A stretch of DNA of 64,000 bases from assembly GCA_964604305.1 (NCBI GenBank), contig CAZRYM010000002.1, positions 15,639 to 79,638 on the forward strand. Direction: 5' to 3'. This DNA comes from an uncultured Thermotogaceae bacterium (GTDB lineage: Bacteria; Thermotogota; Thermotogae; MWEM01). The notes under the pieces were generated by a model. It made no database searches. It was given only the letters and a program-made list of their open reading frames with translations, and was not told the origin of the DNA. A program made the translations under genes and the position numbers. Of the stretch, positions 11,793 through 61,866 are shown piece after piece; position 1 is the first letter of the stretch; every line of letters begins with the position of its first letter.

Positions 11793-12287
11793 ATGAAAAA
11801 GTCTTTTTGCATTATATTTCTGCTTTTTTTATACGCAAGTTTTTTTGCGGCACAATACAGTGAAGATTATTTTGGATTATCACTTGAGTATCAAAAGCTT
11901 GATTTTATTGATGGGTTCCAAGAAAAAGACTGTATCAGTCAAAGTAATTTCAATTTTCTCTTTACATATGGACCTTCTTTTTCCGGTCCTTTTAGATTCA
12001 GAATTGGCGGCGGTGTTCATGAGCTTTCCGATTATTATCTGAACGGTGGAATCGAACTGAAGGTTCTGGAGTTTTTAAATACTGTCAAGGGTAGAATTTT
12101 TGGCCTTTATTTGAATGCAGACCTCAAATTGGGTCTGGATTATGCAGAGGCTTCCATAAAGGGTGAACTCTTTATTCCATTTTCTGCGGTAGGCGGGATA
12201 CAAATTGGTGTAGGCATCAATCACGATATCAAGCCTCTTTTCACGATTGCTTATTCCGGTGGTGTATATCCTTTAATCACAAAATAA
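11793..12287 (+). CDS. Hypothetical secreted protein, possibly a small beta-barrel/outer-envelope protein
   Basis: Signal peptide MKKSFCIIFLLFLYASFFAA; alternating hydrophobic pattern; aromatic C-terminus. Confidence 0.55.
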   Translation: MKKSFCIIFLLFLYASFFAAQYSEDYFGLSLEYQKLDFIDGFQEKDCISQSNFNFLFTYGPSFSGPFRFRIGGGVHELSDYYLNGGIELKVLEFLNTVKGRIFGLYLNADLKLGLDYAEASIKGELFIPFSAVGGIQIGVGINHDIKPLFTIAYSGGVYPLITK

Positions 12288-25616: not shown

Positions 25617-26526
25617 GTCCAATTCACTGACTTTAGGAATATTTGATGGTGTTCATATTGGACACAGGCGGCTTATTGAGAAAACAAAAGAAGTTAAAGA
25701 AACAAGCGGAAAGACGATATTGCTGACGTTTGCATATCCATCAACATACTATCTTCATAAAGAGAGTTTCCCGGGACTCATATATTCCCCGCGTAAGAGG
25801 GAGGAGATCATCAAATCATTGGGTATGGATTCTGTTGTTTTTCTTGACTTTAAGCAGTTTTATACAAAAACTCCCCTTGAATTTGTCAGGTATATCACCG
25901 AGCAATTTTCTCCTTCAGAGTTGACTGTTGGGTTTAACTTTCATTTTGGGAAAAATAGGATTGGTGACTCAGAGCTTCTATTAGATTTGGGGCATCGCTT
26001 TGGTTTTCGAACGAATATTGTACCTGCTGTTAACGCCTCTGGTCACAGAGTAAGCAGCTCATTAATTCGATATTTTTTAAAAAATGGAGATATTAAACGG
26101 GCTAATGAAATATTAAAATGTCCTTATTCAATAGAGGGAAAGGTTTTTCAGGATCAGGGACTGGGGAAAAAATTAGGATTTCCTACAGCTAATCTAAAGA
26201 GAGAAGGAAAAGGTTTGCTGACTCCGTGTTATGGTGTATATCTGGGTTATACACCTGGACTGGGTTTTGGTTTATTGAACATAGGCAAAAGACCAACAGT
26301 CAGCCAGGATGATTTGATCCATTATGAAGTACACTATTTAAAGGGCCATTATCAGTTATATGGAACGAAAATTGTCTGTTATCTTCTTGACTTCATTCGT
26401 CAAGAAAAAAAGTTTTTGTCTGTTGATGAGCTGGTTCAAGAGATAAAAAAAGACAGAAAGAAGGCATATCAGAAAATAGAGAGTTTAACAATTGAAGATG
26501 GTTGGTGGAAAAATGAAATTAAATAA
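25609..26526 (+). CDS. ribF: Bifunctional riboflavin kinase / FMN adenylyltransferase
   Basis: LGIFDGVHIGHRRLI FAD-synthetase N-terminus; C-terminal riboflavin kinase domain GFPTANL. Confidence 0.85.
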   Translation: MIKSNSLTLGIFDGVHIGHRRLIEKTKEVKETSGKTILLTFAYPSTYYLHKESFPGLIYSPRKREEIIKSLGMDSVVFLDFKQFYTKTPLEFVRYITEQFSPSELTVGFNFHFGKNRIGDSELLLDLGHRFGFRTNIVPAVNASGHRVSSSLIRYFLKNGDIKRANEILKCPYSIEGKVFQDQGLGKKLGFPTANLKREGKGLLTPCYGVYLGYTPGLGFGLLNIGKRPTVSQDDLIHYEVHYLKGHYQLYGTKIVCYLLDFIRQEKKFLSVDELVQEIKKDRKKAYQKIESLTIEDGWWKNEIK

Positions 26527-28126
26527 ATGGAGTATAATCTTTCTTCTGGTTTTAATTGTGTCTGTGTTCCTTTCTTGGGAATTCTTTATCACTAGCAGGA
26601 TGAATTTGGATGTTTCATTCATCTTTCCCGATGGCATATCGGATGATGTGGAGTTCGAAATGAGAATCTATTCTGAGGAATTTGACAACAAGACGGCGGT
26701 CTTTCCACATGATAAAGAGATTAATTATTCAAGTATGCCATTTGGGGATTATTTCTTTGAACTCTATTTGGACGATCGTTTAATCATCAAAGAATTTCAC
26801 AATTTTCAATCTCAATTTTCAATAAAACGAGCTAAAGAACAAGTTGCTCTGGATATCAGTGAATTGGCCACGATTACTTCAGTTAACTATAAGATTGTCG
26901 ACCCCTATTTAACTATCAAATGGACCGGAAAATACCTTGGTGCTTATAAACCTGCTGAGTATCTTGTTTACCTAAATAATAACGAAAGACTCTTAAGTGT
27001 AAATTATTTAGAATTAGATGTTTTGAAGGAACTGCTTGAGGGTGAGCAAGCGGTAGATATTAGAATAATCCCCCTTACACAGTCAGGTGGAAAATTATTG
27101 AGTTTTGAATATCAGGTGCCAATCAGAATGGAGAGTGTTAGGCTGGATATTCCCGAAGGTTTTAACATCTATGATATGAGTATAAATATCCAGGAAAAGC
27201 GCATTCCAATTGACCCTTATGATTCGCGTATTAGTTTTCCTGTCATCGATTTAAGTGAGAATAGCATACCCTTCGAAATCTATTACTATGAAGATAGAAT
27301 ATGGAAATCAGAATTAGATCTGTCTGAAGTTGTTGAAACTATCAAGATACCGGATATTCCACAAGCTACAGTAACGGAGGTAGACTTGGATGAATCAACC
27401 GTCACAGTGCATTTGAACATCGATCGGGAAAAAGAGTTCTTGTACAATCGGTTTAAATATTTTGAAATTAGTTCCGACACAATTAATACAACTGCTACAG
27501 AATATTTTACCTACAATAATGATAATCAGAATATTTACATCACGCCCCTCTTTGAACCTGATATCCAAGGAGAAACCCTTCTTTTTACAATTCCTCAACC
27601 ACCAATTCCGCATTTGCATACGTATATGTTCGATGAGAACTTGGATTTTGCACCTTCAATTAAGATTTATTCCGATAGTTTTCTAAAACTAACCGGAAAC
27701 TTGCAGATAGATAATACTCTAGTTCACAATATACCTGAATTCAAAGGAGAATATCTCTTTGAATTGGATTTCGAAAAAGATGAGGTTCATTTGATAGAGA
27801 TAAGCCTTGAGGATATTTACGGACAAACTGCTCAAAAGGCAAAATGGATTTCAACCTCAGTTCCGGAGACCTCTTTTTTTATTAAAGCCGAGCTCAACAA
27901 AAACCAGATCCTAGATATCAAATGGGACAGTTTAACGATTTATCAGGAAACCGAACTGATTATTACTGACAATTATAATATTAAGAGATTTTATCCGGAA
28001 GAGTCCGGCTTACAAATTGATCTTTCAGGTACCTTGTTACGTGAACCTCTGAGAGTAATATTAAAGGGTTTTTTAAACGGTGATGAGTATACAGCAGCTG
28101 TCATTGAAGGGATAAGAAGCGAGTAA
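26513..28126 (+). CDS. Hypothetical membrane-anchored extracytoplasmic protein
   Basis: N-terminal TM span WSIIFLLVLIVSVFL, then about 500 aa of beta-rich sequence with no recognised motifs; co-directional with, and overlapping, the ribF end. Confidence 0.55.
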   Translation: MKLNKWSIIFLLVLIVSVFLSWEFFITSRMNLDVSFIFPDGISDDVEFEMRIYSEEFDNKTAVFPHDKEINYSSMPFGDYFFELYLDDRLIIKEFHNFQSQFSIKRAKEQVALDISELATITSVNYKIVDPYLTIKWTGKYLGAYKPAEYLVYLNNNERLLSVNYLELDVLKELLEGEQAVDIRIIPLTQSGGKLLSFEYQVPIRMESVRLDIPEGFNIYDMSINIQEKRIPIDPYDSRISFPVIDLSENSIPFEIYYYEDRIWKSELDLSEVVETIKIPDIPQATVTEVDLDESTVTVHLNIDREKEFLYNRFKYFEISSDTINTTATEYFTYNNDNQNIYITPLFEPDIQGETLLFTIPQPPIPHLHTYMFDENLDFAPSIKIYSDSFLKLTGNLQIDNTLVHNIPEFKGEYLFELDFEKDEVHLIEISLEDIYGQTAQKAKWISTSVPETSFFIKAELNKNQILDIKWDSLTIYQETELIITDNYNIKRFYPEESGLQIDLSGTLLREPLRVILKGFLNGDEYTAAVIEGIRSE

Positions 28127-29696: not shown

Positions 29697-32000
29697 TTGA
29701 CTATTGGTAAAAAATTGATGCTAGGGTTTGGTTTAATAATTGTGTTGTTGTTGATTGTGATGCTAATTTCTTTCATTTCCAGCCAAAGCATTAAAGACGA
29801 GGGTGAAAGTATTGTGATTCAGGCAAAAGATGCCAGATCTGAATACAAACAATTTACTAACATAGATACTTTTGAATCGGATTTAAAGGATATGCTCCAA
29901 TATGTATTGAGACTGGGTTATGTAACAAATACAGATGAACAGGAAATGATGTTCGAAGAATATAAAAAGATGTTTTCTGCTGTAGAAGAACTGTCGAAGA
30001 CTAATGGATTTTTTTCACTTTTAGAATTAGAATTAACCAAATTGAATGATAGTGTTGAAAAGATCTTCACGCAAAAGGCGTTAGAATTGGATGCCCTTTC
30101 ACAGCTTTCTGCTGACAAAGTAACAGCAGAGGACATCAGAACACAATTGGAATTTTTGTATAAAGAAAAGGAAGAACTGCTAAAGAGGGATGACATGAAG
30201 ATCGTCCGTATCATTCAAACTTTACAAATGATGAAACAGGATTATATTTCCTTAAGACAGCCTGATGAAAAGAAAGAGAATGAAATAAAAGAACGACTTT
30301 TAGAATCAGGTTTAGATGGGTTAACTTTCATTGAGATGGAAGTTTTATGGGACAATGAAGTTTTGGGAGGGCCGCCAATCACTGGATTTCCTATGCTTAT
30401 TCTCTGTGCAAGAGAATTGATGGCAACCGATGGTAAATATCCGGATTTCTTATCAGAGTTGAAACAGGCGAAAGAAGATATTCTGGATTATATAAAATTA
30501 AAAACTCAATTTGGTTATACTACATATGATGCTGTGGCATCCATTTTTGTTCCGTTATCTGTTGAGTTATATGAAAAAAAACTGAAAAAACTGCAGGAGT
30601 CGTTGTTAAAAATAAGCCGTATGGAAGTCAATTTACAAGCAAAGGAAAATATGGTCGGCTACCATAATGAAACTGCTGAGCAAGCCCGAAAAGACTCGCT
30701 AAATACCATTAAAAATGAACTTTCAACAGTATTGAATGATTTGCAGGTACGACTTGAAGCACTTATTTCTGAAAGCGCCACTAGTTTTAATGAAAATCTC
30801 AATCAAGTGGAAGAAAAAAGTGAAGAAAGCGTTACTCTGATAAACAACATGAATTCGTTTATTTTGATCGTGTTGATCACATCCGTTTTGATCAGCATCA
30901 TCATTGCCTACTTTATCTATTCAAGTATCAAAAAACCTATTGTCAACATCCTGAAAAAAACCGAAAAAATCAAAAACCTTGACTTTACTGTTGAATTTGA
31001 AGAAACAAAGAAAAAAGATGAAATGGGACAATTGGAAACTGCGTTGAAAGAGATTGTATGGGCTGTTAAAGAAACCTTGCAGAATGTAAAAAAGGCAATA
31101 GAAGATGTGAAGGAATCCACCGACAAACTGGAACAGGTAGCCGGTGAATCCGAAAACATCTCAAAGGAGCTTAAATCACAGGCAGACAGGACGGAAAACG
31201 ATGTACAAGACACGTCAGCGGCGATTGAAGAGGTAAGTTCGGGAGTAGAGGAAGTGGCGGCATCGGCGAAGAACATCACAGACGTATCGTCAGATCTGTA
31301 CGAAAGGACACAGGAAACGTCCAAATCGGCAAAAAGCGGACAGAAAGAACTGACAAAAGTGGCAGACATTGTCAAGGAAGCGGAAGAGCAGGCAAAGGCA
31401 ACGTCCAGAGTAGTAGAGGAGTTGCAAGCAAATGCGAAGAACGTGGGAGAAATCGTCAAGACGATATCGGGAATCTCAGAACAGACGAACCTGTTGGCGT
31501 TAAATGCTGCGATAGAGGCAGCGCGTGCTGGAGAAGCAGGTAAAGGCTTTGCGGTAGTAGCGGATGAGATCAGGAAATTGGCGGAAGAGAGTCAGAAATC
31601 GACGGAAGACATTGCAAAGATGCTCAAAGAGATTGGAAATGGAGTGGGCGAAGTCAACGATGCTTCGGATAAGACGGTGGAGATTGTAAACAAGATGGAA
31701 GAAAACTCCAGAGAGGCCCTTGAACAATTTGAAAACATACTTGAACGACTGAGCGGGGTAACGGAGTCCGTCCACAATCTCAACAGTACATCAGAGGAAC
31801 AAAGTGCGGCAGCGCAAGAGATAGCGGATGCAATGGATCAATCAGCCCGATCCATGGTTAATGCTTCCGAACAGGTTGAGAATATGGTTCGTGATGTTGA
31901 ACAACAAGTTGATTCAATATCAAAAATGAATGAGATATCACAAACAATGAGGCGTTTAGCAGATGATTTAAGATTGGATATCAGCAAATTTAAATCATAA
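29697..32000 (+). CDS. Methyl-accepting chemotaxis protein 1 (N-terminal TM span, large extracytoplasmic sensor, second TM, HAMP, MCP signalling domain)
   Basis: TM1 [22 protein letters not shown]2 [20 protein letters not shown], then HAMP; highly conserved MCP signalling domain ...[39 protein letters not shown]. Confidence 0.85.
31119..31891 (+). repeat. Copy A of a 773-bp block 100% identical to 33599-34371 (MCP signalling domain), GC-rich relative to its flanks
   Basis: Base-by-base identity with an offset of 2480 bp; mismatches immediately outside both ends. Confidence 0.95.
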
Positions 32001-32176
32001 ACAATAAATTGTCATCGGAAGGAAAAGATCACAGTTGATAATAACCGAAAATCCTATAAACGTATTACTATATTAAACAAAAAACAACGATATAGAAAAA
32101 CTATATTGGAACGTTTTTTGGAAAAGAATAAATGTGATAAAATAGAATAATCAGCGTGCAATCGAGGAGGGAATGA

Positions 32177-34480
32177 ATGAAAATTTCTACCAAGTTATTA
32201 ATGGGATTTACAGTTATTATTATCATTCTTGTTGTAGTTTTATTGGTATCCACCATATCTAACAGAGAAGTTGTTTTGCAAGCAGATACTGTTCTTGAGC
32301 AAACAGATGCTTCTGAGAAAGAGCTTCTTGAATTTAGAAGGTATAATCAGTTGGAAAGTGGTATCAAAGATATGATACAGACTGTATTGAATTTGGGATA
32401 TGTGGCAACGATAGAAGAAGAGAATTTGATTAAAGAACAATACCAAAAAAATGTAGAAAGTTTGAAGGAGATCATATCAAGCTATGAAAGTGCTGAGACT
32501 TACTTACAAACTATTTCTCAGATAGACGAATATGTCAAAGATGTATTCAACTATAAAGAAATAGAGATTCTTTCTCAAAAGGAATTAGAAGAGAATCAGG
32601 AAAAGCAAAAGCAATTCATGGTAAAAAAGACTTCTTTTACTGAAAAGATTCAGAAGATGCAGAAAGTAGATATGCAAAAAGTTGAAAAAACCATGGAATC
32701 GTTTAAACTTATAAAAGACGAGCATGCAGAAATGAAAAAGCCAACCGATGAGCAAAAGCAGATGTTGAATGAAGAGTTGATCAGTAAAACAGATGTCGAA
32801 GAGTTGGGAATGTATGAAATAGAGGAGATTTGGAAACCGGAATTACTTGATATAACCATAAAGGAGTTTTCTGATCTTGAATTCGTAACACGAAATATTA
32901 TCATCAATCCGGAAGATTCGGAGGAATTGCTTCCCAAGGCAGTTGAAATTGCCGAAAAGATAAACAGCAATGTGGGTTTTCAGGTGATGTTTGGTTCAGC
33001 TGTGTATGATCCTGTCTCTGCACAACTGATATCTTTAACCTTGGATAAGTATATTGAGCAGCTGAAAGAAATGGTAAAAATAATCAATGAGAGAGAAGAA
33101 AATGAAAAAGCCATGATCGTAGTACAGGAAGTAATAGAAAATGCAAATCAAAGGGTAGATGAAAGCAGAACTTTGGCTTTTAATATTATCAATACCAATA
33201 TTAAGACTAGCAGTCGGGAGCTGTCATCCATTATCGAGGAAAAAGCCGAAAACCAATATGGAAGTTTGAAACAAAGTTTTGAATCTATCAAAAAGAATAA
33301 CACAACCAGTAAAGAAACAATAGAGAAAAACAATTTCCAAATATTATTGCTGATATCAATCACCATTGTGATTAGTCTGATTGTAGCGGTAGTTATTATC
33401 AGAAGCATTAAAAAGCCAATTAAACGTTTACTTGAGAAATCAACTTTACTTCAAAATCTGGATATGACGGTGGATTTTGAAGCAGATAGCGGTAAAGACG
33501 AAATAGGACAAATCGAACACGCACTGGCACGGGTCGTAGAGGTCATAAAAGATACATTAACCGATTTCAGAAATGCAGTTCAGAACGTTAGAATGGCAAC
33601 CGACAAACTGGAACAGGTAGCCGGTGAATCCGAAAACATCTCAAAGGAGCTTAAATCACAGGCAGACAGGACGGAAAACGATGTACAAGACACGTCAGCG
33701 GCGATTGAAGAGGTAAGTTCGGGAGTAGAGGAAGTGGCGGCATCGGCGAAGAACATCACAGACGTATCGTCAGATCTGTACGAAAGGACACAGGAAACGT
33801 CCAAATCGGCAAAAAGCGGACAGAAAGAACTGACAAAAGTGGCAGACATTGTCAAGGAAGCGGAAGAGCAGGCAAAGGCAACGTCCAGAGTAGTAGAGGA
33901 GTTGCAAGCAAATGCGAAGAACGTGGGAGAAATCGTCAAGACGATATCGGGAATCTCAGAACAGACGAACCTGTTGGCGTTAAATGCTGCGATAGAGGCA
34001 GCGCGTGCTGGAGAAGCAGGTAAAGGCTTTGCGGTAGTAGCGGATGAGATCAGGAAATTGGCGGAAGAGAGTCAGAAATCGACGGAAGACATTGCAAAGA
34101 TGCTCAAAGAGATTGGAAATGGAGTGGGCGAAGTCAACGATGCTTCGGATAAGACGGTGGAGATTGTAAACAAGATGGAAGAAAACTCCAGAGAGGCCCT
34201 TGAACAATTTGAAAACATACTTGAACGACTGAGCGGGGTAACGGAGTCCGTCCACAATCTCAACAGTACATCAGAGGAACAAAGTGCGGCAGCGCAAGAG
34301 ATAGCGGATGCAATGGATCAATCAGCCCGATCCATGGTTAATGCTTCCGAACAGGTTGAGAATATGGTTCGACAGCTTGAAAATCAATCAGCTTCGGTAA
34401 AAGATTTATCTCAGACTTCAAGCGAGTTGACAGTTCTAAACAAAGAACTTGAAGAGGATATCAACAAATTTAAATTATAG
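32177..34480 (+). CDS. Methyl-accepting chemotaxis protein 2; tandem paralog with a divergent sensor domain and an identical signalling domain
   Basis: Same architecture and length (767 aa) as MCP1; N-terminal 470 aa unrelated at sequence level; C-terminal 257 aa identical. Confidence 0.85.
33599..34371 (+). repeat. Copy B of the 773-bp identical block
   Basis: See copy A. Confidence 0.95.
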
Positions 34481-34495
34481 TCAAATAAGATGAAT

Positions 34496-34522
34496 AAGCG
34501 GGTTTATTGCCCGCTTTTTTCT
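34496..34522 (+). terminator. Rho-independent terminator (AAGCGGG-uuuauug-CCCGCUU + U6) after MCP2
   Basis: GC-rich 7-bp stem followed by TTTTTT. Confidence 0.65.
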
Positions 34523-56918: not shown

Positions 56919-57446
56919 GTGAATCACGAATCGGAGGTGTTGCTGTTGTCAACAGGTGAATCAAAAGTTGCTTGTGCAGAACATGAAAAGCTGTACGAAA
57001 AACTTGACGTGTTTATTGAAGAAGTAAAAGATAAACCCGGCGTACTGATCGAGGTACTACATAAGGCGCAAGAGATGTTCGGGTATCTTCCTGTAGAAGT
57101 ACAGAGCCATGTAGCTCAGAAATTAAATCTACCGGAAAGTCAGGTATATGGTGTCGTTACTTTTTACAATTTCTTCACCATGAAGCCCAGGGGAAAGAAT
57201 CAAATCAAGATCTGTCTTGGTACGGCTTGCTATGTAAAAGGCGCTGATAAAGTTCTTGACAGATTTAAAGAAGAACTAAAAGTTGAAATGGATGAAGTAA
57301 CAGAAGATGGTAACTTTTCTCTGCATGGTGTAAGATGCCTGGGGGCATGTTCTATGGCACCGGTAGTGTTAATTGGAGAAAAGGATTTTTATGGAAAAGT
57401 AACAGCGAACGAAATACCAAAGATATTAAAGAAATACAAGGGGTGA
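56919..57446 (+). CDS. NuoE/HndA-like [2Fe-2S] thioredoxin-like ferredoxin subunit (copy 1)
   Basis: KICLGTACYVKG...RCLGACSMAP four-Cys pattern of NuoE 24-kDa family; the start may be the internal TTG about 56943 after GGAGGTG. Confidence 0.8.
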   Translation: MNHESEVLLLSTGESKVACAEHEKLYEKLDVFIEEVKDKPGVLIEVLHKAQEMFGYLPVEVQSHVAQKLNLPESQVYGVVTFYNFFTMKPRGKNQIKICLGTACYVKGADKVLDRFKEELKVEMDEVTEDGNFSLHGVRCLGACSMAPVVLIGEKDFYGKVTANEIPKILKKYKG

Positions 57447-57830
57447 ATGAAGATGGCAAAGATTAAAAGTTTGGATGAGTTGATGAAAATAAAAGAAAAG
57501 GCCGTTAAGGATATCCAGATGAGAGATACAGAGAAGAAAGGGAAAATCGTAGTTGCAATGGGAACTTGTGGAATTGCTGCCGGTGCGAAGGAAACATTGC
57601 AGGCGGTTGTTAACGAATTGGAAAAAAATGGCATCGATGATGTATCCGTCGTTCAATCCGGTTGTATGGGATTATGTGATGTGGAACCCACAGTTGAGGT
57701 AGTCATGGAAGGCAGTGATCCCATCATCTATGGTCATGTTTCACCTGAGCAGGTAGCAAGAATAATTGACCAGCATGTAAAGAATGGAAAAGTTGTCAGT
57801 GATTTGTTAGTTAGAAAGGGCGAAATCTGA
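57447..57830 (+). CDS. HndB-like small thioredoxin-fold [2Fe-2S] ferredoxin
   Basis: VVAMGTCGIAAG...SGCMGLCDVEP; 127 aa. Confidence 0.65.
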   Translation: MKMAKIKSLDELMKIKEKAVKDIQMRDTEKKGKIVVAMGTCGIAAGAKETLQAVVNELEKNGIDDVSVVQSGCMGLCDVEPTVEVVMEGSDPIIYGHVSPEQVARIIDQHVKNGKVVSDLLVRKGEI

Positions 57831-57859
57831 TCAGATAAAAGATTGCGAGGTGAGTAGAG

Positions 57860-59659
57860 TTGCCGGTTGCAACTAATACGATATTAATGTGCGCTGGCGG
57901 AGGATGTATTTCCTCCGGAGAAGAAAGTTGTTTACAAGCACTGCAAAAAGCAGTTGAGAAGTATTCGCTCCACGATGTGGTTAAGGTTGTTGAAACAGGG
58001 TGCATGGGAATGTGTGATGCGGGTCCTTTGATGGTTATCTACCCTGAAGGGGTATATTATCAAAAATTAACACCTGAGGATGTCGAAAAAATCATTTCCG
58101 AACACATTTTGAAGGGTAGAATTGTTGAGGATAAGTTGCTGGACAATCCCGTTTCGAGCTTAAAAACGCATAATCCTTATGATGATCATCCCTTCTTCAC
58201 AAGACAGGTAAAGATTGCCACCAGAAATATGGGGATTGTAGACCCGATGAAAATAGAAGAGTATATTGCCCACGATGGTTATTTTGCACTTCAGAAAGCC
58301 TTGTCCATGAAACCCGAAGAGATCATAGCAGAACTTAAAGAAAGCGGTCTTAGAGGTAGAGGTGGGGCCGGTTTTCCCACATGGTTAAAATGGGAACTGA
58401 CGAGAAAGGTTCCCGGTGATGAAAAATACGTGTTGTGCAATGCTGATGAAGGAGATCCTGGTGCGTTTATGGATCGATCCATACTGGAAGGGGATCCTCA
58501 TTCTTTGCTGGAGGCAATGGTCATAGCCGGTTATGCCATTGGAGCAAACAAAGGATATATCTATATCAGAGCCGAATATCCCCTTGCCATTGAGAGGTTA
58601 AATGAAGGAATCAAACAGGCAAAAGAACTGGGGTTGTTTGGCGAAAACATCATGGGATCAAATTTCTCTTTTGATGTTGAGATCAGAATGGGTGCCGGTG
58701 CATTTGTATGTGGTGAAGAAACTGCTTTAATTGAGTCAATAGAAGGAAAACGGGGACAGCCAAGGGTTAAGCCGCCCTTCCCCGCTCAAGTTGGAGTATG
58801 GGGTAAGCCAACCCTTAATAACAACGTAGAAACTTACGCAAACATTCCGCCAATATTGACAAAGGGAGCCAAATGGTTTTCCAGTATCGGAACTGAAACA
58901 AGCAAGGGAACAAAGGTTTTTTGCCTTGCGGGAAAAGTTAAGAATACCGGTTTAGTTGAAGTTCCAATGGGAATTACATTAAGAGAAGTTGTGTATGATA
59001 TCGGAGGCGGTATTCCAGACGGTAAAGCTTTTAAAGCTGTTCAAACCGGGGGTCCCAGCGGTGGATGTATTCCGAAAGAACACCTGGATACTCCAATCGA
59101 CTATGAAACGTTGAAAGAACTGGGAACTATGATGGGATCCGGCGGTATGATATTTATGGATGAGGATACATGTATGGTGGATGTGGCAAAGTATTTCCTT
59201 GATTTTTCTGTTGAAGAATCTTGCGGAAAATGTCTACCCTGTCGCGAAGGCAATAGAGTCATGCTTGATATGCTGGAGAAAATAACCAGTGGCGAAGGTG
59301 AAGAAGGGGACATTGAAAAACTTGAAGTATTAGGTAAAAATATTATGGACACATCTCTTTGCGGTCTTGGACAATCATCTCCCCAACCCGTCATATCAAC
59401 AATCAGATACTTTAGAGATGAATACGAAGCCCATATAAAAGAGAAAAGATGTCCTGCTAAAGTTTGCAAGCCTTTGATAAGATACCTAATTGATCCGGAA
59501 AAATGTGTTGGGTGTACGGCCTGTGCAAGAGTTTGTCCAGTGTCTGCCATAAGCGGAGAGGTAAAAAAGGTTCATGAAATAGATAGCGAGATTTGCACCA
59601 GATGTGGCAGCTGTATACAAGTTTGCCGATTTGGAGCGATAAGCATTGTTTCACCGTAA
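57860..59659 (+). CDS. NuoF/HndC-like NAD(P)H-binding flavoprotein subunit (copy 1, complete)
   Basis: N-terminal CAGGGC...GCMGMC thioredoxin-like 2Fe-2S; GRGGAGFPTWLKW FMN/NADH site; ESCGKCLPCREG N3 cluster; C-terminal 2x CxxCxxCxxxCP. Confidence 0.85.
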   Translation: MPVATNTILMCAGGGCISSGEESCLQALQKAVEKYSLHDVVKVVETGCMGMCDAGPLMVIYPEGVYYQKLTPEDVEKIISEHILKGRIVEDKLLDNPVSSLKTHNPYDDHPFFTRQVKIATRNMGIVDPMKIEEYIAHDGYFALQKALSMKPEEIIAELKESGLRGRGGAGFPTWLKWELTRKVPGDEKYVLCNADEGDPGAFMDRSILEGDPHSLLEAMVIAGYAIGANKGYIYIRAEYPLAIERLNEGIKQAKELGLFGENIMGSNFSFDVEIRMGAGAFVCGEETALIESIEGKRGQPRVKPPFPAQVGVWGKPTLNNNVETYANIPPILTKGAKWFSSIGTETSKGTKVFCLAGKVKNTGLVEVPMGITLREVVYDIGGGIPDGKAFKAVQTGGPSGGCIPKEHLDTPIDYETLKELGTMMGSGGMIFMDEDTCMVDVAKYFLDFSVEESCGKCLPCREGNRVMLDMLEKITSGEGEEGDIEKLEVLGKNIMDTSLCGLGQSSPQPVISTIRYFRDEYEAHIKEKRCPAKVCKPLIRYLIDPEKCVGCTACARVCPVSAISGEVKKVHEIDSEICTRCGSCIQVCRFGAISIVSP

Positions 59660-59734
59660 GAACAATAATCAGGCTGATTCTTTCTTGTTGGATCAGCCTT
59701 TTGGTTTTTACACCGTAATCAATTAACAGGGGGT

Positions 59735-60238
59735 GTGATAGTGGTTTCAGATAAAGAAATGCAAGTTGTTGAAACTATAGTAAATGGTGTTGTAACAGAC
59801 GATAGTCTGGCAGAGGGTGATGTGTTAATCAACTGTCTGCATGAAATACAGAATCATTTTCACAATTTTGTTCCACCTGAAGCGGCTGAAAAAGTTGCTC
59901 AGATATTGAAGGTTCCCGAATCTTCAGTCTACGAGGTTTTAACCTTTTACACCATGTTTTCTGTTGAGAAAAGGGGAAAGTATGTGATTAGGGTTTGTAA
60001 CAGTTTACCCTGCCACGTGACTGGAGGAAAGGAAATCATTTCAACTTTAAAAAAAGAGTTGGGTTGTGATTTTTATGAAACAACCAAAGATGGTTTATTT
60101 ACTCTTGAAAAGACAGGTTGTCTTGGTTTGTGCGGAGTCTCTCCGGTAATTATGATAAATGAAGAGTTTTACGGAAATTTGACGAATGACAGGGTTTTGG
60201 AGATTATTAACAAAATTCGTGAAGAGGAGCGTGGATGA
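59735..60238 (+). CDS. NuoE/HndA-like [2Fe-2S] subunit (copy 2)
   Basis: RVCNSLPCH...GCLGLCG four-Cys pattern; 167 aa. Confidence 0.8.
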   Translation: MIVVSDKEMQVVETIVNGVVTDDSLAEGDVLINCLHEIQNHFHNFVPPEAAEKVAQILKVPESSVYEVLTFYTMFSVEKRGKYVIRVCNSLPCHVTGGKEIISTLKKELGCDFYETTKDGLFTLEKTGCLGLCGVSPVIMINEEFYGNLTNDRVLEIINKIREEERG

Positions 60239-61866
60239 AAATGAAGATACAGACGGTTTTAGTTTCCGTAGATTCAAGCAGCGCACTTCGCGGAGCGAGG
60301 CAGTTTAAAAAGCAAATTGAAGAGAGCGTCAAAAAATATCAATTATCGGATATGGTTGAAGTACTTGAAACAGGGAGTCTTGGAGTATACAAAGATGGTG
60401 TCATCGTAGCAGTTTATCCTGAGGAGGTCTTTTATGAAATAAATACCTCTGAAGATGTGGAAACCTTAGTGACTGAACACTTTCTCAAAGGCAGAATTGT
60501 AAAAGATTTGATGGTCGAAAGATCAGTCATCAAGCATGATGTAAAAGAGAGTGGAAAACTTAATCGTGAAGAAAGAATCGTGTTAAAAAATATTGGTATC
60601 ATTGATCCCCGTGAGATTGAAGAATATATTGCACGTGACGGATATCTGGCATTAGCAAAAGTTCTCAATGAAATGAACCCCGAAATCGTAATTGATGTGG
60701 TTAAAAAAAGTAACCTAAGGGGACGCGGTGGGGCAGGCTTTCCCACAGGAATGAAATGGGAATTTACCGCAAAAGTCGATAACCCAGAGAAATATGTCAT
60801 CTGTAATGCCGATGAAGGGGAACCTGGTACATTCAAAGACAGATTGATTATGGAAGGTGATCCTCATTCTGTTGTAGAAGCAATGACAATAGCTGGATAT
60901 GCTGTGGGTGCAAATAAAGGTTATATCTATATACGAGGAGAATATTACGGGTCAATCGATAATATCAGAAAAGCCATAAAAGATGCATATGATTTTGGTT
61001 TATTGGGTGAGGACATTTTGGGGAGCGGGTTCAGTTTCGATCTCTCAGTCAGACTTGGAGCAGGAGCTTATATTTGCGGAGAAGAAACCGCCTTGATAGA
61101 ATCCATCGAAGGCAGACCCGGAAGACCTAGATTGAAGCCTCCATATCCTCCTGTAGAAGGATTATACGGTAAACCAACAGTAGTCAATAACGTTGAAACC
61201 TTTGGAAATATTCCATGGATAATCAATAACGGACCAGATGCTTTTAAAGCAATAGGTACTGAAGGTTCTGCAGGAACAAAGGTATTTACCCTGGTTGGTA
61301 ATATTATCAATCGTGGACTGGTTGAAGTACCCATGGGGACCACCATTTTTGACTTGATATATAAGTACGGGGGTGGTATTCCCGAAGGTAAGAAATTAAA
61401 GATTGTTCAAACAGGCGGAACAGCTGGTACCTTTATGAATACCGAAAAATTAGAAATTGGTTTAGATTATGATTCGGGCAAAAACGGAGCTTCTTTGGGC
61501 TCAGGTGTTATTCTTTGTATGGATGAGGAGAGTTGCCCTGTGGACTGTGCCAAAACAGTCATGGAATTTTTTGCTCATGAATCATGTGGAAAATGTACTC
61601 CATGCAGGGAAGGAACAAGGGTATCGGTGAAGTTACTGGAAAAGATCTCCAAGGGACAGGGAAGAGATGAGGAAATTGAACAACTGTTGATGATATCAGA
61701 TGCCATGGAAGAGACTTCTTTCTGTGGACTTGGACAATCTGCAGCGATACCTCTGAGAACCATAGTCGAATCCTTTAAACAAGAGTTTAAAGACCATGTT
61801 CTAAAAAAGCCTTGTGATTCATGTACTTATGAAGAACCAAAAAAGAAAAAGAGGGCAAAAAGATAA
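60235..61866 (+). CDS. NuoF-like flavoprotein (copy 2) lacking the N-terminal Cys ligands and the C-terminal 2x[4Fe-4S] domain
   Basis: GRGGAGFPTGMKWEF and ESCGKCTPCREG retained; the N-terminal domain has SVDSSS / GSLGVY in place of CAGGGC / GCMGMC; ends with a Lys-rich tail instead of the ferredoxin domain. Confidence 0.8.
   Translation: MKMKIQTVLVSVDSSSALRGARQFKKQIEESVKKYQLSDMVEVLETGSLGVYKDGVIVAVYPEEVFYEINTSEDVETLVTEHFLKGRIVKDLMVERSVIKHDVKESGKLNREERIVLKNIGIIDPREIEEYIARDGYLALAKVLNEMNPEIVIDVVKKSNLRGRGGAGFPTGMKWEFTAKVDNPEKYVICNADEGEPGTFKDRLIMEGDPHSVVEAMTIAGYAVGANKGYIYIRGEYYGSIDNIRKAIKDAYDFGLLGEDILGSGFSFDLSVRLGAGAYICGEETALIESIEGRPGRPRLKPPYPPVEGLYGKPTVVNNVETFGNIPWIINNGPDAFKAIGTEGSAGTKVFTLVGNIINRGLVEVPMGTTIFDLIYKYGGGIPEGKKLKIVQTGGTAGTFMNTEKLEIGLDYDSGKNGASLGSGVILCMDEESCPVDCAKTVMEFFAHESCGKCTPCREGTRVSVKLLEKISKGQGRDEEIEQLLMISDAMEETSFCGLGQSAAIPLRTIVESFKQEFKDHVLKKPCDSCTYEEPKKKKRAKR

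What the first reader, a model, noticed from the sequence alone, without database searches (positions are those of the whole stretch)
31119..31891. The identical MCP signalling cassette is compositionally foreign (about 50% GC versus about 25-38% in the flanks)
Inside the identical block the DNA is about 48-53% GC and uses G/C-ending codons (gcg, acg, tcg, gtg, gag, cag). Immediately outside it, in both genes, the sequence returns to the window's AT-rich style (about 23-38% GC; aaa, gat, att, gaa codons). Both boundaries of the identity therefore coincide with composition switches. This suggests the signalling module was acquired from a higher-GC donor and then spread between the paralogs, rather than being merely a conserved domain; protein conservation alone would not change synonymous codon choice.
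Basis: seen in the sequence. Interest (0 to 1): 0.7.

Follow-up and report, generated by a model that had tools for sequence, protein, structure and literature searches.

The report
Gene-converted chemoreceptor module with odd codons
Two neighbouring chemoreceptor genes share an identical 773-bp signalling module because the copies keep overwriting each other, and the overwritten stretch has its own G-rich, T-poor codon style that looks tied to that copying rather than to import from a GC-rich donor.

Summary
Bases 31119-31891 and 33599-34371 are identical, at 48.6% GC against about 34% in the rest of both genes. About half of the rise comes from amino-acid composition. The other half is synonymous: GC3 is 0.51 against 0.34 expected (z = 6).

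The block is the signalling module of two tandem 767-aa MCP paralogues. In 5 of 5 related uncultured Thermotogota species that carry both genes, the two copies are identical within the genome. Between species they differ by 10-22%, while the sensor halves follow orthology. This is recurrent gene conversion, not a single spread.

The codon anomaly is specific. G replaces T at four-fold sites and C replaces T at two-fold sites. All lineages share it, and it roughly coincides with the converted tract. It is absent from ribosomal and EF-G genes and from homologous MCP modules in other AT-rich genomes.

A non-stationary substitution model rejects decay towards the host background (p about 1e-6). 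The cassette and the B sensor share the same nearest outgroup, and no donor with this codon style was found.

Import from a GC-rich donor is therefore not supported, though an ancient import cannot be excluded. A conversion-linked repair bias is the best candidate cause, but it remains inferred.

The parts
29697..32000 (+). MCP gene A (767 aa, TTG start). Layout: clade-specific sensor region, second TM segment, HAMP, signalling module, A-type C-terminal tail.
   Evidence: ORF list. Pfam MCPsignal 6.7e-39 and HAMP. Orthologues in L001, L005, L006, L007 and L017. Identical N-terminus in P0121.
32177..34480 (+). MCP gene B (767 aa), tandem paralogue of A. Against A, the sensor is 21% aa identical, TM/HAMP 41% and the tail 33%.
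   Evidence: Orthologues in L001-L007, L016 and L017.
31119..31891 (+). Cassette copy in gene A (aa 475-731 plus 2 nt). It covers both arms and the hairpin tip of the cytoplasmic four-helix bundle. It is the converted tract and carries the G-rich, T-poor synonymous sites.
   Evidence: Identity. Composition. Alignment to T. maritima TM1143 structure 2CH7/3JA6.
33599..34371 (+). Cassette copy in gene B, 100% identical to 31119-31891.
30912..31049 (+). HAMP domain of A. It lies outside the tract and has background composition.
   Evidence: Pfam PF00672 at residues 406-451.
33392..33541 (+). HAMP domain of B. It lies outside the tract.
   Evidence: Pfam PF00672 at residues 406-455.
31892..32000 (+). 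A-type C-terminal tail (36 codons). It is never converted, is conserved among A orthologues, and is AT-rich (GC3 0.19).
34372..34480 (+). B-type C-terminal tail. It is never converted and is conserved among B orthologues.
31832..31891 (+). Last roughly 20 codons of the tract. They are identical between the copies, but their third positions are already background-like (pyrimidine-rich).
   Evidence: Pooled change points and per-column patterns.
34496..34516 (+). Terminator-like hairpin plus T-run after gene B. None was found between A and B.
   Evidence: consensus scan only.

Best explanation
The 773-bp block encodes the kinase-control (signalling) module of two tandem paralogous methyl-accepting chemotaxis proteins.

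Shown:
- The two copies stay identical through recurrent intragenomic gene conversion (concerted evolution). This has operated on the same 771-803-nt segment in every examined lineage of an uncultured Thermotogota clade.
- The sensor halves and the last 36 codons evolve independently and follow orthology.
- The high GC is composite. About half comes from the Ala/Glu/Gly/Val-rich coiled-coil sequence (GC1 and GC2). About half comes from a distinct synonymous-site regime: G instead of T at four-fold sites, and C or G instead of T or A at two-fold sites.
- That regime is roughly co-extensive with the converted tract and is shared by all lineages despite heavy synonymous turnover. It is absent from highly expressed genes and from homologous modules in other AT-rich genomes.
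- The regime still operates. Its equilibrium composition differs from that of the flanks.

Inferred: the bias arises from the conversion process itself. Each new mutation in one copy forms a mismatch in heteroduplex with the other copy. Repair that favours G:C (T:G- and A:G-specific glycosylase-type repair) then erases G-to-T and G-to-A changes more often than it spreads them. The strand asymmetry (G protected, C not) would need a fixed heteroduplex polarity or an added purine preference on the coding strand.

The sharp tract edges are probably self-perpetuating, because conversion needs near-identity at its ends. They are probably also reinforced by selection to keep the receptor-specific membrane-proximal segments distinct.
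For: Concerted evolution:
- Cassette identity between A and B within a species is a mismatch-free run of 771-803 nt in the window, L001, L005, L006 and L007.
- Between species, cassette identity is 0.78-0.90.
- N-terminal halves are 0.43-0.48 identical between A and B everywhere, but 0.66-0.86 between orthologues.
- Synteny (A, B, nucleoside hydrolase, PNP) is conserved.
- Direct traces of recombination exist: a deleted remnant of gene A next to B in L002, and hybrid genes with an A N-terminus and a B tail in L015, P0121 and P0126.

Composition:
- GC3 is 0.506 against 0.337 expected, z = 6.
- The cassette has GC3 0.43-0.52 in all 10 lineages, against 0.30-0.39 in their N-terminal halves.
- The four-fold G-for-T signature appears in every lineage.
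- Pooled change points fall within 0-20 codons of the tract ends.

Controls:
- Ribosomal proteins and EF-G have GC3 0.34, with four-fold G 0.15 and T 0.38.
- Unrelated MCPs in low-GC genomes show no GC3 rise.
- The closest AT-rich homologues, at 43-75% aa identity, have GC3 0.17-0.39.

Ongoing force: an HKY+gamma non-stationary model was fitted to 89 four-fold sites in 10 lineages.
- It gives equilibrium A .37, C .16, G .31, T .16.
- It rejects the window background (2dLL 29.6, p = 1.7e-6) and the N-terminal equilibrium (p = 2.7e-8).
- The N-terminal control is consistent with stationarity.
- Root placement does not matter, and a homogeneous-rate bootstrap puts the 95th percentile at 7.4.

Vertical descent: the cassette and the B sensor share the nearest outgroup, P0129.
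Against: - A symmetric GC-biased conversion should raise both G and C and lower both A and T. At four-fold sites only G rises and only T falls, so an extra strand-specific factor is needed.
- Stationarity is also rejected (p about 0.008). The inferred ancestor was more extreme (G about 0.6, T about 0), so part of the anomaly is historical and decaying. Parsimony counts lean towards S-to-W changes (15 W-to-S against 26 S-to-W).
- L004 still has both copies yet has the lowest GC3 (0.43).
- The last roughly 20 codons of the tract are converted but look like background.
- The likelihood test loses significance if among-site rate variation is assumed far stronger than the fitted value (alpha 0.7 against fitted 3.4).
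- All comparison genomes are metagenome assemblies. These can collapse near-identical repeats, so '100%' within a genome may hide a few differences.
- No direct evidence of biased repair exists for this organism.
Confidence: 0.5

Rival explanations
1. Horizontal acquisition. The signalling module was imported from a higher-GC organism into one paralogue, copied to the other, and is now slowly ameliorating.
For: - Relatives with higher GC3 exist. Genome-wide GC3 is 0.51-0.55 in L028-L032, and a 50%-GC Thermotogota MCP has GC3 0.65 (L027).
- The inferred crown ancestor of the cassette was more extreme than today, and stationarity is rejected at p about 0.01.
- Parsimony shows an excess of S-to-W changes.
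- Two-state models cannot reject an equilibrium of 0.34.
Against: - The cassette and the B sensor share the same nearest outgroup (P0129), so there is no discordance.
- No homologue closer than 71-75% was found outside the clade. None has the G-rich, T-poor, C-poor four-fold style: relatives are C-rich, and AT-rich homologues are normal.
- The cassette's four-fold composition lies outside the mixing line between the relatives' usage and the host's usage.
- Relaxation to the host background is rejected (p = 1.7e-6).
- The event would have to predate 10 lineages whose synonymous sites differ by dS 0.6 to more than 3.
- No mobile-element genes lie nearby.
Confidence: 0.17
2. Vertical compositional relic. 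The common ancestor had GC3 of about 0.5 genome-wide, as sister lineages do today. The clade's genomes then drifted AT-rich, and the cassette simply lags.
For: - Sister-lineage family members (P0128, P0129, P0130) sit in 43-46% GC genomes with GC3 about 0.5 in all genes.
- Cassette dS is somewhat lower than N-terminal dS.
- The N-terminal model hints at a higher-GC root.
Against: - Equally conserved genes (S7, S12, L19, S16, EF-G) show no lag.
- The cassette's four-fold G (0.32-0.46) and T (0.07-0.16) lie outside the range spanned by the relatives and the host, so it is not an intermediate.
- The equilibrium of the current process differs from that of the flanks.
- Synonymous sites have largely turned over.
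Confidence: 0.12
3. Selection on synonymous sites of the cassette mRNA or DNA. Candidates are purine loading, decoding speed or accuracy for the long coiled-coil hairpin, and avoidance of T-rich motifs. This would act independently of conversion.
For: - The signature is strand-asymmetric, with 66% purines on the coding strand. That fits an RNA-level preference better than a symmetric repair bias.
- It is stable across lineages.
- Cassette dS is modestly reduced.
Against: - It is not seen in ribosomal or EF-G genes.
- It is not seen in the same domain of other AT-rich organisms, including homologues at 57-75% identity.
- It stops inside the ORF, near the tract edges, rather than covering the whole transcript.
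- Folding energy equals that of synonymous permutations and of recoding with window codon usage (z = 0.5 and -0.4).
- There is no Rfam match.
Confidence: 0.15
4. Assembly artefact. The perfect identity comes from short-read assemblers collapsing two similar repeats.
For: - Three assemblies give hybrid genes with an A N-terminus and a B tail (L015, P0121, P0126).
- Several contigs break inside the cassette (L020, P0124, L004).
Against: - Collapse can hide only a few percent of divergence. It cannot create the contrast between at least about 98% identity within genomes and 78-90% between species, seen in five independent genomes.
- Three independent assemblies of one organism agree (L007, L017, L020).
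- The composition anomaly does not depend on exact identity.
Confidence: 0.04

Closest known systems
Campylobacter jejuni/coli group A transducer-like proteins (Tlp2/3/4 and relatives)
   Same: Paralogous chemoreceptors have divergent sensor domains but highly similar or identical C-terminal signalling domains. Recombination between tlp genes, and inversions bounded by them, have been described (PMC6433261).
   Different: The Campylobacter paralogues are dispersed, not tandem. That paper does not mention gene conversion or GC content (0 occurrences of either term). Here the recurrent homogenisation is documented across species, with sharply defined tract ends.
Long-lasting concerted evolution of prokaryotic paralogues (tuf, mtrA, fla and others; Wang & Chen 2018, PMC6053082; mtrA, PMC4632066)
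   Same: Paralogues are more alike within a genome than orthologues are between genomes, over deep divergences. This is attributed to recurrent gene conversion, and tandem pairs are included.
   Different: No chemotaxis gene appears in that paper's text. Here conversion is limited to one domain of the gene. Neither paper discusses base composition.
GC-biased gene conversion: mammalian histone and Hsp70 families (from my own knowledge), and bacterial core genes (Lassalle et al. 2015, PMC4450053)
   Same: GC3 is elevated specifically where recombination or conversion is frequent, independently of expression. The effect is strongest at synonymous sites.
   Different: The bacterial evidence is a genome-wide correlation for allelic recombination, not a paralogue conversion tract with internal flanking controls. 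Here the shift is strand-asymmetric (G for T, with C unchanged), which classical gBGC does not predict.
Thermotoga maritima TM1143-type MCP cytoplasmic domain (PDB 2CH7, 3JA6)
   Same: It is the best solved-structure match (E = 1e-39) across both arms and the tip of the four-helix bundle. The hairpin-tip sequence is conserved.
   Different: About 40% identity only. The N-terminal sensor of A and B has no Pfam family, and its only relatives found belong to a small family of roughly 765-aa MCPs.

Membership tests
Methyl-accepting chemotaxis protein (MCP) | MCPsignal domain (PF00015) with the conserved hairpin tip | tested here: met
   PF00015 at 6.7e-39 and 8.6e-39, above the cut-off. The tip motif aligns to 2CH7.
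Methyl-accepting chemotaxis protein (MCP) | HAMP linker and two transmembrane segments flanking an extracytoplasmic sensor | tested here: met
   HAMP scores 26.7 bits in A (cut-off 25) and 24.1 bits in B, just below the cut-off. Hydrophobic segments at aa 8-28 and about 388-408 are visible in the translations. No TM predictor was run.
Methyl-accepting chemotaxis protein (MCP) | Functional coupling to CheA/CheW and methylation by CheR/CheB | not testable with these tools
   No che genes lie in the 64-kb window.
Concerted evolution by gene conversion | Paralogues more similar within a genome than orthologues between genomes, in several lineages | tested here: met
   5 of 5 genomes: 100% within the tract against 78-90% between species.
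Concerted evolution by gene conversion | Flanking parts of the same genes follow orthology, which excludes independent recent duplications | tested here: met
   Sensors and tails group as A with A and B with B.
Concerted evolution by gene conversion | Identity confirmed on reads long enough to span the repeat | not testable with these tools
   Only assembled contigs are available. Hybrid and broken contigs show that assemblers struggle here.
Horizontally acquired segment | Composition atypical for the host | tested here: met
   GC3 z = 6. No other 257-codon window in the window's ORFs exceeds 0.44.
Horizontally acquired segment | Phylogenetic discordance between the segment and its flanks, or a closer relative in a different taxon | tested here: not met
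   The nearest outgroup is the same (P0129) for the cassette and the B sensor. Cassette identities track the relationships seen in the N-terminal halves.
Horizontally acquired segment | Amelioration towards the host's equilibrium composition | tested here: not met
   The host background equilibrium is rejected, p = 1.7e-6. The caveat about extreme rate heterogeneity applies.
Horizontally acquired segment | An identifiable donor lineage with matching codon usage | tested here: not met
   None among the closest homologues whose DNA could be fetched. The word-index protein searches were lossy, so absence is not proof.
GC-biased gene conversion | GC3 raised in the converted tract relative to adjacent unconverted sequence, independent of expression | tested here: met
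GC-biased gene conversion | Higher equilibrium GC of the substitution process inside the tract | tested here: met
   Equilibrium GC at four-fold sites is 0.47 against 0.33-0.34 in the N-terminal halves and the background.
GC-biased gene conversion | Strand-symmetric advantage of G and C over A and T | tested here: not met
   At four-fold sites G rises and T falls, but C and A are unchanged. Two-fold sites do shift to both C and G.
GC-biased gene conversion | Biased mismatch repair in heteroduplex, or skewed W-to-S SNP frequency spectra | not testable with these tools
   This needs population reads or experiments.

The most novel reading that the evidence does not exclude
The cassette is a natural experiment showing a strong, strand-asymmetric biased gene conversion in a bacterium. 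Repeated conversion between two tandem paralogues has driven the synonymous sites of exactly the converted 0.77 kb to a private equilibrium (G over T, C over T) and holds them there. This equilibrium is far from the genome's mutational equilibrium, and the unconverted halves of the same genes serve as internal controls across about 10 species.
Probability: 0.35. Interest if true: 0.75.

Novelty: new variant of a known kind. Interest (0 to 1): 0.5.

Why it matters
The existence and strength of GC-biased gene conversion in bacteria are still argued, mostly from genome-wide correlations. This locus offers a sharply bounded conversion tract inside a gene, unconverted flanks of the same transcript as controls, and replication across about ten species-level lineages. 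If the bias is conversion-driven, the locus gives a direct, testable handle on the repair bias, including its unexpected strand asymmetry.

There are also practical lessons:
- A local GC or codon anomaly inside a gene need not mean horizontal transfer.
- Short-read metagenome assemblies produce chimeric or collapsed receptors at such repeats.
- For chemotaxis biology, two receptors with unrelated sensors are forced to present an identical kinase-control module to the signalling array.

Tried and rejected
- Parsimony polarisation of third-position changes. It is visibly biased: the N-terminal control gives 50 W-to-S against 11 S-to-W. It is also underpowered, so I used it only as a weak hint.
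- Two-state W/S non-stationary likelihood. The surfaces are flat, and the cassette equilibrium interval of about 0.28-0.55 includes both hypotheses. Inconclusive.
- Two-state tests on T, G, R and S at four-fold sites. They gave mutually inconsistent roots, so I replaced them with the four-state model.
- Per-gene GC3 change points. Too noisy, so I used pooled change points instead.
- mRNA structure selection. No signal.
- Known RNA families. Nothing in the cassette.
- Translational-selection explanation. Rejected from ribosomal, EF-G and LDH codon usage.
- 'All MCP signalling domains are like this'. Rejected from seven unrelated MCP loci and seven closer homologues.
- Other MCPs in the window. 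None found.
- Protein word-index searches with the cassette. They missed the clade's own proteins. The exhaustive representative search was needed.
- L002 as a 'singleton' control for loss of conversion. The gene A remnant is only about 5% diverged from the B cassette, so the loss is too recent to be informative.
- L015, P0121 and P0126 hybrids as natural single-copy controls. They cannot be told apart from assembly collapse.
- Antisense ORFs inside the cassette. I considered them by-products of T-poor third positions. Seven in-frame TCA codons close one antisense frame, and dS is near normal. I did not pursue them further.
Full report
**1. The observation**

The window (38.3% GC) carries two tandem + strand ORFs of exactly 767 codons: A at 29697-32000 and B at 32177-34480. 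Both are methyl-accepting chemotaxis proteins. Each has a Pfam MCPsignal domain (E about 1e-39) and a HAMP domain. The best solved structure is the Thermotoga maritima TM1143 cytoplasmic domain, 2CH7/3JA6.

Bases 31119-31891 and 33599-34371 are identical over 773 bp. Outside this block the genes are 43-48% identical in DNA. In protein, the sensors are 21% identical, the TM/HAMP region 41% and the tails 33%.

GC in 200-nt windows is 0.46-0.505 inside the block and 0.27-0.39 immediately outside it in both genes.

**2. How much of the GC rise is synonymous**

- The cassette has GC1/GC2/GC3 = 0.584/0.370/0.506. The N-terminal halves have about 0.43/0.24/0.348.
- Recoding the cassette's amino acids with the codon usage of 43 other ORFs predicts GC 0.426 and GC3 0.337.
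- So roughly half of the rise is amino-acid composition (an Ala/Glu/Gly/Val-rich coiled coil). The other half is codon choice, with GC3 6 SD above simulation.
- No 257-codon window in any other ORF exceeds GC3 0.44.

The synonymous shift is specific:

| Site class | Base | Observed | Expected |
|---|---|---|---|
| Four-fold | T | 0.11 | 0.34 |
| Four-fold | G | 0.36 | 0.15 |
| Four-fold | A, C | unchanged | |
| Two-fold pyrimidine | C | 0.51 | 0.29 |
| Two-fold purine | G | 0.48 | 0.32 |

**3. Relatives show concerted evolution**

A scan of one genome per species found seven MAG species labelled uncultured Thermotogaceae or Thermotogota. Their cassette proteins are 91-96% identical, and the synteny is the same: A, B, nucleoside hydrolase, PNP. 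A metagenome scan added three more cassette sources.

In all five genomes that hold both genes (window, L001, L005, L006, L007 = L017):
- The A and B cassettes share a mismatch-free run of 771-803 nt.
- Cassettes of different species are only 78-90% identical.
- The N-terminal halves group by orthology: 66-86% for A with A or B with B, against 43-48% for A with B.
- The 3' edge of the tract is fixed within 5 nt, and the 5' edge varies over about 30 nt.

This is the textbook signature of recurrent gene conversion, not a single recent copy event.

Direct by-products of recombination between the repeats are visible:
- L002 keeps only a deleted remnant of gene A upstream of B.
- Three assemblies contain hybrids with an A N-terminus and a B tail (L015, P0121, P0126). 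These may instead be assembly collapses.

One caveat applies throughout. All comparison genomes are short-read assemblies, which can hide small differences between repeat copies.

**4. The anomaly is old, tract-limited and specific**

- Cassette GC3 is 0.43-0.52 in all ten lineages, against 0.30-0.39 in their N-terminal halves. Meanwhile dS between lineages ranges from about 0.6 to saturation.
- The G-for-T signature at four-fold sites appears in every lineage.
- Pooled over species, the composition segment begins at alignment codon 466-475, against a tract start of 466-476. It ends at 711-731, against a tract end of 732. The last roughly 20 converted codons look like background.

Controls:
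- Ribosomal proteins S16, L19, S12 and S7 plus EF-G have GC3 0.34, with four-fold G 0.15 and T 0.38. LDH has GC3 0.26. So this is not the codon style of highly expressed or highly conserved genes.
- Signalling domains of unrelated MCPs in low-GC genomes show the amino-acid-driven GC rise (+0.04 to +0.08) but no GC3 rise.
- The closest AT-rich homologues (43-75% aa identity, L021-L026) have GC3 0.17-0.39 and ordinary four-fold usage.
- mRNA folding energy is indistinguishable from synonymous permutations and from recoding with background usage.
- No Rfam family matches the cassette.

**5. Is it foreign?**

An exhaustive profile search found a family of 763-779-aa MCPs with the same architecture. 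DNA for three of them shows single-copy genes in 43-46% GC genomes. In those genomes GC3 is about 0.5 everywhere and four-fold sites are C-rich.

P0129 is the nearest outgroup of both the cassette (71%) and the B sensor (41%, against about 21% for the others). Cassette and sensor therefore tell the same history. This argues for vertical descent of the cassette with gene B, followed by overwriting of A.

The cassette's four-fold composition (G 0.32-0.46, T 0.07-0.16, C about 0.16) lies outside the range spanned by these relatives and by the host. It is neither a copy of their usage nor an intermediate between the two.

**6. Equilibrium or decay**

Parsimony polarisation and two-state likelihood were biased or powerless.

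A four-state HKY non-stationary model was fitted to 89 four-fold sites in 10 lineages.
- It gives equilibrium A .35-.37, C .16, G .31, T .16-.17.
- It gives a root of about A .3, C .12, G .57-.60, T 0.
- The window background is rejected as the equilibrium (2dLL 28-30, p about 2e-6).
- The N-terminal equilibrium is also rejected (p about 3e-8).
- Stationarity is rejected more weakly (p about 0.01).
- The N-terminal control is compatible with stationarity.
- Root placement does not matter.

A bootstrap under the amelioration null gives a 95th percentile of 7.4 with homogeneous rates. It gives 32 if rate heterogeneity is assumed to be very strong (alpha 0.7). The fitted alpha is 3.4.

So a cassette-specific directional force is still acting. 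The ancestor was even more extreme, so part of the anomaly is historical.

**7. Mechanism**

Shown:
- Recurrent conversion of the kinase-control module.
- A tract-limited, actively maintained synonymous regime.

Inferred: the regime comes from biased repair of heteroduplex formed between the copies. G:C would be favoured over A:T, with a strand asymmetry that classical gBGC does not predict. That asymmetry would need either a fixed heteroduplex polarity or an added purine preference on the coding strand.

The alternatives keep appreciable probability:
- an ancient import;
- a vertical relic of a GC-richer ancestor;
- RNA- or DNA-level selection.

**8. Comparison with what is known**

- Shared signalling domains and recombination among paralogous chemoreceptors are known in Campylobacter (PMC6433261).
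- Long-lasting concerted evolution in prokaryotes is documented for 26 genes, with no chemotaxis gene among them (PMC6053082).
- gBGC in bacteria rests on genome-wide correlations (PMC4450053).
- This locus is a new, domain-limited example of concerted evolution, with an unusual composition signature confined to the tract.

**Verdict**

Exchange between the paralogues is supported, but a GC-rich donor is not.
- Novelty: a new variant of a known kind.
- Interest: moderate.

Noticed in passing
L015:2-2029; proteins P0121 and P0126: Three assemblies carry a single hybrid MCP with the gene A N-terminus, the cassette and the gene B tail. P0121 is 100% identical to the window's A N-terminus. These are either real deletions by recombination between the two cassettes or repeat collapse by the assembler.
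   Followed up: partly
L002:1320-1505: In this species gene A is reduced to a remnant next to an intact gene B. The remnant holds the start codon region, then the A-type linker, then about 105 nt of cassette. That cassette piece is about 5% diverged from the species' own B cassette.
   Followed up: yes
window 31832-31891 and 34312-34371: The last roughly 20 codons of the identical tract have background-like, pyrimidine-rich third positions. The composition switch therefore lies about 60 nt inside the 3' identity boundary, whereas at the 5' end the two coincide.
   Followed up: partly
window 29697-30851 and 32177-33331: The roughly 385-aa sensor regions of A and B match no Pfam family. Their only relatives found belong to a small family of roughly 765-aa MCPs, with sensors 20-41% identical. 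The ligand-binding fold is unknown.
   Followed up: partly
window 26492-28126: A 544-aa ORF with no Pfam match, whose start overlaps the end of the ribF-like gene. Another ORF without a match lies at 11793-12287.
   Followed up: no
window 56919-61866: Two consecutive paralogous gene pairs occupy this stretch. Each pair has a NuoE-like 2Fe-2S thioredoxin-like protein followed by a NuoF-like flavoprotein. The pairs are diverged and show no long identical tract, unlike the MCP pair.
   Followed up: no
(protein word-index search): The cassette query did not return the clade's own 91-100% identical proteins, although the N-terminal query did. For this highly populated domain the word-index search is lossy, so 'no closer homologue' from it is weak evidence.
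   Followed up: yes
window 32001-32176 and 34496-34516: A terminator-like hairpin follows gene B, but none was found in the 176-nt spacer after gene A. The pair may be co-transcribed.
   Followed up: no
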